Shown here: positions 38,560 to 56,761 of the stretch, in pieces
Layout: each line of letters starts with the position of its first letter
Position numbering within the stretch: the first letter of the stretch is position 1
The notes under the pieces: generated by a model
The model's database searches: none
What the model saw: only the letters and a program-made list of their open reading frames with translations
Told to the model about the DNA's origin: nothing
Position numbers and translations under genes: made by a program
NCBI RefSeq assembly: GCF_004010195.1
Contig: NC_057728.1
Span: 61,749,956 to 61,813,955, forward strand
From: Chiloscyllium plagiosum
Taxonomy: Eukaryota
Length of the DNA: 64,000 nucleotides
Direction: 5' to 3'

Positions 38560-39872
38560 AATGGTGCAGGGTTACATTTCAGACTGGAGGCCTGTGACCA
38601 GTGGTGTGCCACAAGGGATTGTTGCTGGGTCTATTGGGGTTTTTTTGGTCATTTACGTAGATGATTTGGATGTGAACAGAGGAGGTACAGTAAGTTTGCA
38701 GGTGATGCCAAAATTGGAGGTATAATGGATAGCGAAGAAGGTTACCTCCAGAGTACAATGGGGTCTTGACCAAAAGGCTCATTCCCGAAATGTCGATTCT
38801 CCTCCTTGGATGCTGCCTGACTTGCGCTTTTCCAGCAAAACATTTTCGGCTCTGATCTCTAGCGGCTGCAGTCCTCACTTTCTCCTCTTGATCAAAAGGG
38901 CCAATGGGCTAAGGAGTAGCAGATAGAATTTAATTTAGATAAACGTGAGGTGCTGCAGTTTGGAAAGGTGAATCGGCAGGACTTATACACTCAATGGTAA
39001 GGTTCTGGGAAGTGTTGCTGAACAAACTCCTTGGAATGCAGGTTCATTGTTTATTGAAAGTGGAGTCAAAGGTAGATATGGTAGTGAAGGCAGGGTTTGG
39101 TATAATTAAGTAGTCAAAGCATTGAGAACAGCAGTTAGGTGATGTTGTGGCTGTACAGGACACTGGTTAGGTCCATATTGGAATACTGTGCAATTCTAGT
39201 CCCCCTGCTATAGGAAGGTAATTGTGAAACTAGGAAAAAGTTCAGAACAGATTTACAAAGGATTTGAGCTGTGGGGAAAAGATATCTAGACCTAGAGTGC
39301 CAGAGGCTGAGGAGTGACCTTTTTATATAGATTTATAAAATCAGGAGATGCATGAATAGGGTAGATAGAAAAGTCTTTTCCCTGGAGTAGGGGGAGTCCA
39401 AAATTAGGGCATAGGTTGAAGGTGACGGGCAAGATTTAAAAGGGACCTAAGGGCAATGTTCTCACAGGGTGGTGTGTGTTTGGAATGAGCTGCCAGAGGA
39501 AGTGTTGGAGGCTGGTACAATTATAGCAGTTAAAAGGCATCTGGATGAGTACATTAATAGGAAAGGTTTAGAGAGAAATGAATTGAAGAGTGATGAATCC
39601 CGATGTAGGGATTATGCTCAAAATGTCGATTCGCCTGCTCCTCGGATACTGCCTGACCGGTTGTGCTTTTCCAGCACCCCATTCTTCAACTCCTATCCCT
39701 CTAAACCTTTCCTATTGATATACCCCTCCAGATGCCTTCTCTGCAGTCCTCACTTTCTCCTTTTTACAGGGATATGGCCCAAATGTTGGCAAATAGGACT
39801 GGATTAATTTAGGATATCTGATTGGCATGGGTGAATTAGAGCAAAGGATCTGTTTCTGCTTTATATCTGACT
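38560..39872 (+). mobile_element. CR1 LINE 3' part with small PLE-derived inserts
   Basis: [22 protein letters not shown]; VCVWNELPEEVLEAGTIIAVKRHLDEY. Confidence 0.9.
38778..38885 (+). mobile_element. PLE pLTR 3'-end insert (43331 family) with a 14-bp near-perfect TSD
   Basis: TSD TCTTGACCAAAAGG (38764) / TCTTGATCAAAAGG (38886). Begins inside the hammerhead helix II (cccgaaatgtcgattctcc). Confidence 0.8.
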
Positions 39873-43316: not shown

Positions 43317-43330
43317 AATACATTGGCTAG

Positions 43331-43548
43331 TGCTGAAAGTATGTTGCTGGAAAAGCGCAGCAGGTCAGGCAGCATCCAAGGAACAGGAGAATCGACGTTT
43401 CGGGCATAAGCCCTTCAGGAAATTTCCTGAAGAAGGGCTTATGTCTGAAACGTCGATTCTCCTGTTCCTTAGATGCTGCCTGGCCGCTTTTCCAGCAACA
43501 CATTTTCAGCTCTGATCTCCAGCATCTGCAGTCCTCACTTTCTCCTCC
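43331..43548. mobile_element. 218-bp palindromic PLE-derived hammerhead unit with a perfect 14-bp TSD
   Basis: TSD AATACATTGGCTAG at 43317-43330 and 43549-43562. 43332-43422 is the reverse complement of 43423-43510. Confidence 0.9.
43422..43459 (+). ncRNA. Minimal hammerhead ribozyme motif
   Basis: CUGAAGA-A-GGGC-UUAU-GUCU-GAAAC-GUC; the mirror arm keeps the ancestral helix II GGGC/GCCC. Confidence 0.72.
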
Positions 43549-45596
43549 AATACATTGGCTAGGCCAACATATCCTACAAATAGTGTGCTGAGGCTAAAGC
43601 AAAGATTAGCGATTGTTAGAGGTACATGTAGGCAGTTGCATAATAATCAGTAGTTCACCTCGATCAAGCATTGAAGGACTTCAAAGGGAAAATGGAGACT
43701 CATGATGGAGTGATTAGTTTTCACTGAGATGGGAGTATGGTTTAAATACACATTAGCAGTAGAGAAAGTCTCTTACCTTTCAGCTGTGATTAAATGATTT
43801 GCAGTTTTCAAAAAATTTCATAGCACGGAATGTACCTTTTGAACCTATATTTCTAAGACTTCATTTTTATGACTTGATGTCATATGGATTAGTAGAGTTT
43901 GGAACCTGTCTTTTTTTTTTCCTCTGCTTTCTCTTTGCTATAACCCCCATGTCCTTTTGTAAATTTGAGCTCATTTGGATTCTTTATTGCAGAGAGAAAT
44001 GAAAAGCTCATGCTTAGTCCAAGGTGACTGAAATTAATCAGATTAGCTTCCCTTAGATTCTGATGAGCCAAAGGTTCAACCAGTTGATGATTTAATGTGC
44101 TGAGCTGTCAGGGTGATATTTTAAAATAACGTGCTAGTGGTGTCAGAGTTTCCTTAAGTTCTTTTTGGCCAGTCAGAAATAAGTTTGTAGATTATAGCGC
44201 AGGTTTGTTTTGCAAAACTTTATTTACTTTGTCTAATGGGAGAAAAAGCAATTAACTAGTGTATATAGCAAATTATAAACTTTGGAGGAACTTTTAAGTG
44301 ATAATTAAAGTAATCAATTTTTAAAAAGTTGCTATCCATAAAATCAACTCCTAATTTTGTCTTCCCTTTGGACTTTGAATTATAATGTTCCAGAATCTAA
44401 GCTCCTTTGGTTGAGAATATGAATTCCCTTTCTCAATCTTGTTTCCAAAAATGCTGAAAAGGAGTGTTTTTGGAGGATCCACTCACATTTTGGGTGGCCA
44501 CAGCCATTTTGAACCTTTTTTTGTCATGTACTTGTCATACAGTACCCAATAAAGGTGTTGTCTGCATTTTGATATTGTGCCTCTGATAACTAAATCCAAT
44601 AACATTTTAATCAACCTGGTCAGCTATGAAATGACACACATCCTGAACATGGACCTTTTTTGGTCAGCAAGAGGGATACTACCACAAGCACTGTCAAAGT
44701 GCTATTTTTTTCATGGTGGTTACTGTTTACATCCTCGTAATAAAACATACACTTATTAATCAGTCAGTTTGGTGGTTTCCCTGTTTTTTTCGCCAACAGA
44801 TTTTGGCACCGCTTCCCTAATCAAAGATATTTCAAAGATTATGATTAGATTCTCCATTTAGTTATTGAGTATTGTTTAATACTTGCTACTTTTTCCACCT
44901 TTTGGCCTAAGTGGTATTTTACTCACGTCCTTTCTTGTCCTCTATCTCGTTCTTCCAAACTGACCATGTCAACACTACATGTTTCTTGGTTACTTCATTC
45001 CTCCATGAGACTTGTCCTTTCTTTGACTCTAATTCAACCCAAACTTCAAGATCCTAAGCTGCTTTTTTAGGTACTATGATTATATTATATTGAAACAGCA
45101 TTGCTTGCAAATGAAAAACAATTTAATGTTTCAATAGATATCTTACAAATGGTATAAAAACTTTGGCCAGTGTAAAATTTGTTTCAAATTGACAGTCAGT
45201 TGAACATTAGATTGTAATTTATATATAAATACATAATTGGTTAATTCTTTTTGAGTTAACAAGAAGGATATGCACTGTTTCATTATGATTTTTGACAAGC
45301 TGAGTGAGCCTATATTAACCTGGTACATGGAATGAATTCTAACAAAATAGAAAGGGTAGTTGTGGAAAGGAGGTTCTCTGACTTTTGGGGAAGTCCTGAA
45401 TGAGGATATAAGGTAAATCATTTCTTCACCCAGAGAGTGGTGATCTTGTGGATTTTAAATAGTACAGAAAGCAGTTAAGACAAAAGTACTATGATTTCAT
45501 GGAGTTGCGTATAGCACTTGGGGCTAAAGGGATCAAAGAACATGGGGGGGGGGTGGGGGGTAAGCAAAAACAGACTGTTGAGTTGGATCATCATGA

Positions 45597-49996: not shown

Positions 49997-50086
49997 CTGC
50001 TGAAAAATGTGTTGCTGGAAAAGCGCAGCAGGTCAGGCAGCATCCAAGGAGCAGGAGAATCGATGTTTCGGGCATAAGCCCTTCTT
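49997..50086 (-). mobile_element. PLE pLTR fragment (43331 family)
   Basis: Nearly identical to 43331-43415; stops in the hammerhead core (aagaagggcttatgcccgaaacatcg on minus). Confidence 0.85.
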
Positions 50087-54585: not shown

Positions 54586-56761
54586 AGGAATTTCAATGAT
54601 TTCTTACCTCTCCTAGTCATCTGAAATGACATCAGTATACGCTCTCAGCATGTCTTCCTAAAGTTGGTACCAGGTGTGTTGGCATGGAAAGAGATGGGCA
54701 GCAGATAGGATTTATGTTGGCATGTGAACTGTAAAGGCCATAGGGTATATAAGGTGGCACAGAGGTTACAAAGGATTATCATGGATTGGTAAATTGACAT
54801 CGGATGGGATATGGGGAATGAGTTGAGGTGCTGGTGAGAGCAGGAGGGATGTCTTGTGTTGTCAACGGCATTTTTTAAAAAAAAATTGACTTGTCCTGGA
54901 GCCCCAAGACCAGCTTTCTGACCAGTTTGCCTCTGGAACTGACAGCCTTTTGGACTCTTTCAAGTTGGCTTGGCCTGGCCTGGCCCGTTTTATGAAGCTA
55001 GCCATGTGTGTTTGCTCCATGAATGGAGTTTGGAAATGTGGGTGGTTGTTTTTTTTTTAGAAAGGCTAACTTTATAGATCGGGGACAAAACCCACAGCCT
55101 TAGTGAGTTTTATGTCTGACACTTGAGTTGACTTGAAAGCTACAGATGTCAATCTTGAGTTACACTGGCATTGGAGTACTAGACGTGAAGGATACCTGAA
55201 AATATTTCTGTACGTGAAATAAAATCCACAATCTATGATTGATAAAGTATAAAATAAAAAAAGTCACAAAGTAATTGTGCTAGACAAAGCTCACTTCTGA
55301 GTCTAAGTGTGGCACTGGAAAAAGCACAGCAGGTCATGCAGTATCTGAGGAGCAGGAGAGTTGACCATAACAGTTGTGATGCTCAAATGATTAAATGAAT
55401 CCTTGGCAAAAGGCCAGGTGGTGCACCTCACTTTAAATAAAAGCAGAACACTGCAGGTGCTGGCAATCTGGAAAAAGCACAGAATGCTAGAAAATCCCAG
55501 CAGATCTGGTACCATTTGTGGAGAGAGAAACAATGTTTTGAGTCCAGTGTGACTTTTCAGAATTAAAACACTGCCCCACAAATTATTGCAGAAGTCACAT
55601 AGCAATTAAATGTATAATTTTAACAAATTATTGTAGTATTTTAGAGGTCATATAAATAAAATGGTGGTAAAGTGTGAAACAGTACAATTTTTTTCCTGTT
55701 GTTCAGTAATTAGTGTGCTCGTGCATGTTGATCTGCCAACAAATATATCCTTAAACTCCATTTCTAAACATCCCATGTCTTTTTTAAATTACTTGCTGTA
55801 CCTCCATGTGAACATCATGATTAATGTGCAAATGCTCAACTTGCTCTACTGCAGCATGCCAAGCTACTAAATATTCTATTTTATCTGACATTTTGCTCTC
55901 TGCTAAATTTTTGCTCATCCACTTAATTTATCTATATTCCTTTACTAACTCTTTTTGAATCTCTTTGCAACTTGCTTTCCTAGCTCCTTGCGTCATAGCC
56001 AAATTTGATGATAGATGAAGTGACTGACTAAGTCATTAGTGTTTGAGCAAAATAGCTAAGATGACAGCATTGATTGCTGTGGCACTCCCCTTGTTAATCA
56101 TTTTGATAATTATCCTTTTATCCCAACTGTTTTCTATTAGTTCATGAATCTTTCCATGCTGGTACATCACTTCGACCACTGAATTGTGCAGTTACTTGTG
56201 CAGTAACTTATTAATGGGGCAGAACACTGACCCCAACACAGTTTGGGGGAAGTCTGTCTTGATGGTACAGCTTCCAATTTACCCAATACTAGTGCTACTA
56301 TTCCATGAATCCACATCTGTTTTTCCTCACCAATCTTTGATCCACACATTCACTTCTCTGGTTAGTCTTATCCAATGCCATTTTGCTAATGAATTGGTTA
56401 TTAATTTTAGGTCATCACCTTTTGTGGTTCCACCTTTTAATTTAGTACATAGTGTTTTACAAAAAAATTCTTTCTCCTTGCCATACAGTTTTTAAAGGCA
56501 AAAATAAAAAGACACCTTACTTGTACCAGCCACTGCTGGTTGTGGAAACCATTCTAACTGCCTGATTAACTGCTACCTCTGGATTCTAAAGCGGCTGCCA
56601 GAGGCACAGTCCCAAACTAGGTCCATCAAAATTCTTAAGTGAGGAAAAAAAATTGCCAGAAGAGAAGGAAAAGAGTTTCTGTTCTGAAGCAGGGCCACGC
56701 TGGCACAGTCATGTTCTACCACAAGTGTCATCAACTCCTCTGTGAACTAGAACTTGGAGTA

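What the first reader, a model, noticed from the sequence alone, without database searches (positions are those of the whole stretch)
43317..43562. 218-bp palindromic hammerhead unit inserted as a single event
Seen: a perfect 14-bp TSD (AATACATTGGCTAG) around a non-coding unit that folds into a ~90-bp hairpin centred on GGAAATTTCC. Hammerhead motifs read outward from the centre on both strands; the + copy has a full core and the - copy lacks 3 nt of the core. A 38-nt unpaired 3' tail follows. The fold-back point lies just 5' of the hammerhead core. Related pieces at 38778, ~39590, 49997 and ~55305 also begin or end at or near the hammerhead. Inference: either a minimal PLE insertion with 5' inversion (hairpin/self-primed reverse transcription) or a non-autonomous retrozyme-like family.
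Basis: partly seen in the sequence, partly recalled or inferred. Interest (0 to 1): 0.75.

Follow-up and report, generated by a model that had tools for sequence, protein, structure and literature searches.

The report
Mirror-image Penelope retroelement stub
This 218-base mirror-image insert is a real but ordinary stub of a Penelope-type jumping gene, one of thousands in this genome, and such stubs almost always pair one long and one short end, which likely means that both cut ends of the target DNA start copying the same RNA.

Summary
In detail: a 218-bp palindrome with a 38-nt tail and a perfect 14-bp TSD; a related species has the empty site with one TSD copy. It is a minimal insertion of a Penelope-like element (PLE), not a retrozyme or a palindromic family. 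The parent has a GIY-YIG domain. At least 5,637 head-to-head junctions exist, with variable centres; only 13 loci share this centre and this exact junction is unique. Inverted pLTR plus tail is published PLE architecture, and this scan has noted it many times in this genome. What this work adds is a rule: the outer ends fall at two fixed sites 38 nt apart, one long and one short in 43 of 44 resolved palindromes; either arm may reach further 5' (20 vs 18); both arms share subfamily variants; some inserts invert only the tail. This favours twin priming on one RNA from both ends of a staggered cut (inferred, about 0.6) over fold-back self-priming. The hammerhead is likely a passenger: copies begin just upstream of it, probably at a capped transcript start.

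The parts
43317..43330 (.). left copy of the 14-bp target-site duplication
   Evidence: single copy at the empty site in organism B
43331..43421 (-). inverted arm of the PLE pseudo-LTR end, stopping at the short outer end (no tail)
   Evidence: short-end class defined
43390..43421 (-). hammerhead remnant of the inverted arm, 3 nt of the core missing
   Evidence: sequence; alignment; unique among 13 loci with this centre
43422..43423 (.). two junction bases (AT) not templated by the parent; they complete the centre GGAAATTTCC (43418-43427)
   Evidence: parent reads ...CCTCATTC before CTGA
43424..43510 (+). direct arm from 3 nt upstream of the hammerhead core to the short end position; carries a 6-nt deletion near 43485
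43424..43458 (+). minimal type I hammerhead motif: CTGAAGA 43427-43433, stem II 43435-43446, GAAA 43447-43450, predicted cut after GTC at 43454
   Evidence: sequence compared with the min-HHR description in PMC4209133; no Rfam hit; activity untested
43511..43548 (+). 38-nt PLE 'tail' ending at the long outer end
   Evidence: tail described in PMC3846280, PMC8557442, PMC11167929
43549..43562 (.). right copy of the target-site duplication
38764..38899 (+). separate solo long-end insertion of the same module (38778-38885) with a 14-bp TSD, 1 mismatch
49998..50086 (-). separate solo short-end copy starting inside the hammerhead core; no TSD found
39598..39761 (+). older, rearranged copy (arm 39598-39692, tail piece 39740-39761); no TSD found
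55315..55365 (-). older fragment starting near the predicted cut site; no TSD found

Best explanation
The unit is a minimal insertion of an endonuclease-bearing Penelope-like element, built anew at this site, likely by two reverse transcriptions primed on one RNA from the two 3' ends of a 14-nt staggered cut. Shown: TSD, empty orthologous site, parent with GIY-YIG domain, two fixed outer ends 38 nt apart, one of each per palindrome, arms from the same source, variable junctions. Inferred: (1) a dimeric RT-endonuclease nicks both strands about 14-15 nt apart, leaving two 3' overhangs; (2) one primes at the long site and the other at the short site of the same RNA; (3) both cDNAs run towards the RNA 5' end, which probably lies at the A of TC-ATTCC, 4 nt before the hammerhead core, on an uncleaved capped transcript; the long-site copy passes the short site by displacing the first cDNA; (4) the two cDNA 3' ends are trimmed and joined head to head by host end-joining with microhomology or short inserts; loss of one cDNA gives solo copies of either class. 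The hammerhead in this copy is probably inert. Confidence in the identity (PLE stub made anew) is about 0.95; the figure given is for the twin-priming mechanism.
For: Ends are bimodal: 54 short, 30 long, 3 other of 87 distinct copies. Pairing: 43 long+short, 1 long+long, 0 short+short, 6 unresolved among the first 50 of 5,637 junction-selected loci (p = 3e-12 against 0.5); 13 of 17 pairs, 4 unresolved, in 464 kb taken by position across subfamilies (one of the 13 is a weak distant match). The short-end arm reaches further 5' in 18, the long-end arm in 20, equal in 5. 107 inserts invert little more than the tail; in 20 of 20 examined the partner arm ends at 76-98, never long, 19 with a TSD, so neither arm could be a copy of the other. 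Solo copies occur with either end (21 short, 12 long of 33). Arms agree at four polymorphic columns: 13 differences against 49 +/- 4 in shuffled pairs, minimum 34 of 5,000; rare variants are mostly private (51 vs 4), against ongoing homogenisation. In vitro a lizard PLE cleaves and extends both target strands, starts at two internal sites that bound the tail, uses uncleaved RNA and is predicted to be a dimer (PMC11167929). 61 of 87 copies start within 7 nt of the core; the base before ATTCC is G in 32, A in 9, T in 4 of 45 cases not matching the parent's C (first 100 of 3,910 hits, tallied by eye; expected G share 0.19).
Against: No pile-up of long-arm stops at the short site: 107 junctions there against 141 in a control window further in, which counts both arm classes. 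Arm concordance is predicted equally by fold-back. Later deletions at palindrome centres could create tail-only inversions and blur the asymmetry. One long+long pair and one short+short pair, both without a TSD. About 10 of the 32 G cases can be read from the inverted arm itself (22 of 35 remain). The RNA lay shows no discrete transcript start, so the start site is not shown. The RT domain could not be examined. The 2013 paper prefers self-priming (PMC3846280).
Confidence: 0.6

Rival explanations
1. Fold-back: one cDNA primed at the long site reaches the RNA 5' end, snaps back and copies itself; the element's endonuclease or a bound protein ends the copy at the short site, leaving the tail unpaired.
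For: Explains identical arms, the long+short rule if the stop is fixed, and the snap-back look of the centre. Self-priming is proposed in PMC3846280 and endonuclease resolution of the tail in PMC8557442.
Against: Predicts that the long-end arm always reaches at least as far 5'; observed 20 vs 18. Cannot make tail-only inversions with a full short arm or short-end solos with TSDs (11 of 21) without extra deletions or a second priming route. Both sites prime directly in vitro.
Confidence: 0.2
2. Two RNA molecules from the same source locus, one per subunit of an asymmetric dimer, each primed from one target end at its own site.
For: Gives the same products without needing displacement of one cDNA by the other; fits the lack of a pile-up at the short site and the symmetric 5' extents.
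Against: Needs a built-in asymmetry to avoid long+long and short+short pairs (1 of 44) and needs both RNAs from one subfamily (40 of 43 concordant at the commonest diagnostic site).
Confidence: 0.13
3. A non-autonomous palindromic or retrozyme-like family: the whole 218-nt hairpin is transcribed, cut by its ribozymes and re-inserted as a unit.
For: 39 other near-full-length palindromes among 40 scored candidates; fixed outer ends and TSDs.
Against: Centres vary widely among the first 50 loci; GGAAATTTCC occurs at 13 loci and this exact junction once. Subfamily variants sit in both arms, not in one. One hammerhead per strand, paired with the other arm in the predicted fold, so no unit-length RNA can be cut out. 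The parent continues into a GIY-YIG ORF.
Confidence: 0.03
4. Assembly artefact or a palindrome formed after insertion by local DNA repair.
For: Hairpins can mis-assemble; no single listed contig of the window's own species spans the whole unit.
Against: Empty site with one TSD copy in organism B and both junctions touched by contigs of other samples; opposite-strand joints at the same position in raw reads; TSDs enclose both arms in 44 of 50 palindromes.
Confidence: 0.02

Closest known systems
Insertions of endonuclease-positive Penelope-like elements with inverted pLTR and tail (Adineta vaga Pen2/Pen3, PMC3846280; scheme in PMC8557442)
   Same: Head-to-head inverted terminal repeat, palindrome at the junction, 30-40-nt tail on one end only, TSD around the whole insert, C-terminal GIY-YIG domain in the parent.
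   Different: Here the insert is reduced to the two ends (no ORF), the TSD is longer (mode 15 vs 8-10 bp), and thousands of copies allow the long+short rule to be counted; those papers call the tail optional and propose self-priming or endonuclease resolution.
Poseidon of Anolis carolinensis in vitro (PMC11167929)
   Same: Two internal RT start sites bounding the tail, both target strands cleaved and extended, uncleaved hammerhead RNA as template.
   Different: In the text read it does not say that the two sites are used one per strand in a single insertion, nor derive the inverted structure from that; there the ORF starts inside the hammerhead, here an ATG-led frame begins downstream of the tail.
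Minimal type I hammerheads of metazoan PLEs (PMC4209133)
   Same: Core CUGANGA, extra base before stem II, GAAAC-GUC with no loop III, short stem I; mostly solo copies; pairs on opposite strands 100-700 bp apart were noted in Schistosoma.
   Different: Pairs here are 0-30 nt apart; in this copy stem I is 2 bp and the G10.1-C11.1 pair is G-U.
Non-LTR retrozymes (bioRxiv 10.64898/2026.07.22.740005)
   Same: Short, non-coding, PLE-derived, type I hammerhead, dispersed monomers.
   Different: Defined by tandem same-strand hammerheads that release a unit RNA; this unit has them head to head on opposite strands.
LINE-1 twin priming (recalled, not read here)
   Same: Both target strands prime on one RNA, giving an inversion inside a TSD.
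   Different: In L1 the second site is variable and the two cDNAs cover different parts of the RNA; here the second site is fixed and both cDNAs usually cover the same part, so a palindrome results.

Membership tests
Endonuclease-positive Penelope-like element | GIY-YIG endonuclease at the ORF C-terminus, upstream of the 3' pLTR | tested here: met
   L149:949-1311, directly upstream of the same arm sequence, matches PF01541 at E 6.6e-05, 23.6 bits against cut-off 22.6
Endonuclease-positive Penelope-like element | PLE-type (telomerase-like) reverse transcriptase in the same ORF; clade placement | not testable with these tools
   Bodies of long copies read N in the stretches served (12 of 30 loci); two short N-terminal pieces match no Pfam family
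Endonuclease-positive Penelope-like element | Pseudo-LTRs in partial tandem with an adjacent inverted 5'-truncated copy | tested here: met
   Inverted short copy + direct repeat + long body + repeat with tail inside an 11-bp duplication; partial tandems
Endonuclease-positive Penelope-like element | 30-40-nt tail on one end | tested here: met
   38 nt here; bimodal ends in 84 of 87 copies
Endonuclease-positive Penelope-like element | Target-site duplication | tested here: met
   14 bp with empty site; 44 of 50 palindromes, mode 15
Minimal PLE hammerhead (min-HHR) | Core CUGANGA, GAAA, UH with palindromic 15.2-16.2 and an extra base before stem II | tested here: met
   + arm 43427-43454 by inspection against PMC4209133; not detected by Rfam; the - arm fails (3 nt lost)
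Minimal PLE hammerhead (min-HHR) | Stem I of 4-5 bp and G10.1-C11.1 pair | tested here: not met
   This copy: 2-bp stem I, G-U at 10.1-11.1 (sequence). A sister subfamily has a 4-bp stem I (GAAT/ATTC)
Minimal PLE hammerhead (min-HHR) | Self-cleavage as a dimer or with protein help | not testable with these tools
   Needs an assay; the predicted fold buries the motif
Non-LTR retrozyme | At least two tandem same-strand hammerheads | tested here: not met
   One per strand, head to head
Non-LTR retrozyme | Unit-length linear or circular RNA | tested here: inconclusive
   One poly(A) run gave 2,472 reads on both strands, 92% running into unlike sequence, no discrete ends; the second gave none
Palindromic non-autonomous family with a master copy | Shared central junction and arm-specific fixed differences among copies | tested here: not met

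The most novel reading that the evidence does not exclude
Penelope-like elements integrate by obligatory double target-primed reverse transcription: both 3' overhangs of a ~15-nt staggered cut prime on one capped, uncleaved RNA at two fixed sites 38 nt apart, and the cDNAs are joined head to head. This one rule would account for the tail, the inverted pLTR and the mass of hammerhead-headed stubs, with the hammerhead playing no part in setting the ends.
Probability: 0.5. Interest if true: 0.65.

Novelty: new member of a known kind. Interest (0 to 1): 0.4.

Why it matters
The element type and its layout are known, so the locus itself is ordinary. The value lies in the sample size: how PLEs make their inverted repeats and tail is called unresolved in PMC8557442, and an in vitro system now exists (PMC11167929). 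The long+short rule, the symmetric 5' extents and the tail-only inversions give that system a sharp prediction that separates twin priming from self-priming. It also warns that such palindromes, perhaps one per 30 kb here (17 pairs in 464 kb; a rough figure from three regions), will be mis-annotated as microRNA hairpins, MITEs or retrozymes.

Tried and rejected
Rfam: no hammerhead model reached E 1; the mir-680 hit (31 bits against 104) reflects the hairpin only. ORF listing: no frame of 120 aa or more overlaps the unit. loci (L001-L030) were selected by likeness to the query, so they were not used for any count; the apparent right-arm-only variant seen there does not appear in the junction-selected sample. 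A pile-up of long-arm stops at the short site was looked for and not found. Expression: no RNA holder listed; the RNA lay could not show a start site, and one of two runs laid nothing. The parent RT domain was not seen. The idea that ends are set by ribozyme cleavage was rejected: copies that hold the core start 26 or more nt upstream of the predicted cut, although these searches required the core and so cannot count copies that begin at the cut. A splice acceptor at the 5' boundary was rejected: the parent has no AG there. Literature searches listed no paper on twin priming in PLEs or on these shark-type palindromes; the library lacks most subscription papers, supplementary figures of PMC11167929 are not held and those of the bioRxiv preprint are closed, so a prior statement may exist.

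Full report
Observation. The window holds AATACATTGGCTAG at 43317-43330 and again at 43549-43562, around 218 bp. The insert folds into one long hairpin (z = -18.5, none of 200 shuffles as stable; the other strand z = -15.1). The arms are 84% identical with gaps; the left lacks 3 nt in the hammerhead core, the right lacks 6 nt further out. The last 38 nt (43511-43548) have no partner. Rfam finds no hammerhead, only a sub-threshold microRNA hairpin, so the ribozyme call is by inspection: CTGAAGA, an extra A, stem II, GAAAC-GTC, which matches the minimal PLE hammerhead described in PMC4209133 (parts 1-2 of 4 read). In this copy stem I is 2 bp and the first stem II pair is G-U, and the motif is fully paired with the other arm in the predicted fold.

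It is one real insertion. Contigs of organism B from two studies join window 43316 directly to 43549, so they hold one copy of the 14-mer and no unit; the flank differs from the window at 23-24 of about 617 letters. Contigs of two other samples of the window's species run 30 and 28 letters into the left arm and one starts 21 letters inside the right end; these fall just short of the tool's 31-letter rule, and none spans the unit.

It is one of many, and not a family with a master. A DNA search gave 39 other near-full-length palindromes among 40 scored candidates; a duplication of 8 to 16 bp was found at each of the 30 loci fetched, the window's own included. A 36-nt core motif occurs 28,555 times exactly. 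Head-to-head pairs with at most 30 nt between the stem II halves occur at 5,637 loci, and the first 50 listed have many different centres, none GGAAATTTCC. That centre occurs at 13 loci, and the window's version once.

The parent is a Penelope-like element. Copies taken in genome order continue upstream into a CT-rich region ending ...CCTCATTC before the core. One reaches a reading frame that matches GIY-YIG (PF01541, E 6.6e-05, 1 bit above the cut-off). A long copy shows the textbook layout: inverted short copy, direct repeat, long body, repeat with tail, all within a short duplication. Bodies of long copies read N in the stretches served (12 of 30 loci), so the RT domain and the clade remain untested. 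Inverted pLTRs with a junction palindrome, a 31-bp tail and a TSD are described for rotifer elements (PMC3846280, passages) and as general PLE features (PMC8557442, passages).

Two fixed outer ends. I examined 90 hits of the core motif from the start of the list (30 given as loci, 60 fetched; 87 distinct insertions after dropping three second arms). Their 3' ends are short (about 82-98 nt from the core) in 54, long (120-133) in 30, other in 3. Of 32 with an inverted partner, 29 are long+short, 2 unresolved, 1 short+short without TSD. In the first 50 junction-selected palindromes, which overlap that set by five loci, 43 are long+short, 1 long+long without TSD, 6 unresolved; 44 have a duplication, mode 15 bp, a length that may include a base or two of chance match. 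In 464 kb taken by position, 13 of 17 pairs are long+short and 4 unresolved, across older subfamilies too. The window's unit follows the rule. In vitro, a lizard PLE starts reverse transcription at two internal sites whose spacing is the tail, cleaves and extends both target strands, does not need hammerhead cleavage and is predicted to dimerise (PMC11167929, parts 1-2 of 4 read).

One template, two primers. The arms of one insertion agree at polymorphic columns far more than shuffled pairs (13 against 49 +/- 4), while rare variants are mostly private (51 vs 4; mean arm divergence 2.2%), so they began identical and have since drifted. Fold-back from the long-end cDNA predicts that this arm always reaches at least as far 5'. 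Observed: long further in 20, short further in 18, equal in 5. At 107 loci the inverted arm is little more than the tail; in all 20 examined the other arm ends at 76-98 and 19 have a TSD. Solo copies come with either end (21 short, 12 long of 33, three complex loci left out). A staggered cut that yields a TSD leaves two 3' overhangs, each able to prime (established TPRT geometry, recalled). I infer that one primes at each site. Against this: there is no pile-up of stops at the short site (107 vs 141 in a control), later deletions could mimic part of the pattern, and one versus two RNA molecules cannot be told apart here.

Why the centre lies before the hammerhead. 61 of 87 copies begin within 7 nt upstream of the core; loose read ends pile at the A of ATTC (119 reads, reflecting genomic copies). 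The predicted cut is 26 or more nt downstream, so these copies came from uncleaved RNA; copies starting at the cut were not countable with a core-based search. TC-ATTCC fits the initiator consensus YYANWYY (recalled). Among the first 100 of 3,910 hits, the base before ATTCC was G 32, A 9, T 4, C 28, with 27 parent variants (tallied by eye); G is expected in 19% of non-C cases, and 22 of 35 remain after removing those readable from the inverted arm. An extra G opposite a cap is known from other retroelements (recalled). The fly element has an internal promoter with an initiator (PMC2377424, passages). A transcript start at that A is therefore likely but not shown; the RNA run gave no discrete starts. 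Junction microhomologies of 1-3 nt and templated inserts resemble host end-joining (recalled).

Not a retrozyme. These are defined by tandem same-strand hammerheads (bioRxiv 10.64898/2026.07.22.740005, parts 1-2 of 5 read). The unit has one per strand, buried in a hairpin. Very short PLE insertions are also reported in an alga (median 128 bp; PMC9977147, passages).

Novelty. Architecture, tail and hammerhead are published, and this scan has noted the same elements repeatedly in this genome (173 notes fit the look-up); those notes are unchecked and are not used as support. Searches (listings only) showed no paper stating the one-long-one-short rule or twin priming for PLEs; subscription papers and some supplements are outside the library. 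Verdict: new member of a known kind, interest 0.4, for a testable mechanistic rule rather than for the locus.

Noticed in passing
L119/L120, L122/L123; pairs 224 nt apart in the list: Head-to-tail repeats of 224 nt (hammerhead, tail, start of the ORF, short upstream piece) put two or three hammerheads on one strand; these fit the retrozyme definition better than the palindromes do.
   Followed up: no
L101-L115, L236-L269: At the CpG of the hammerhead's ACGT, G>A private to the short-end arm occurs in 7 of 43 palindromes and never private to the long-end arm; may be chance or a strand bias at insertion.
   Followed up: no
window 43703-44062: This 360-bp stretch beside the unit is absent from the organism B contig: a deletion there or a second insertion here.
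   Followed up: no
window 38764-38899: Solo long-end copy with a 14-bp TSD whose last bases (AAAAGG) stand in for the hammerhead's GAAGGG, suggesting joining by microhomology inside the core.
   Followed up: partly
L108, L248, L252, L254: Junction inserts copied from nearby arm sequence, as in templated end-joining.
   Followed up: partly
window 39534-39738: A 59-bp inverted duplication of flank (39534-39592 vs 39680-39738) interrupts an older copy between arm and tail.
   Followed up: no
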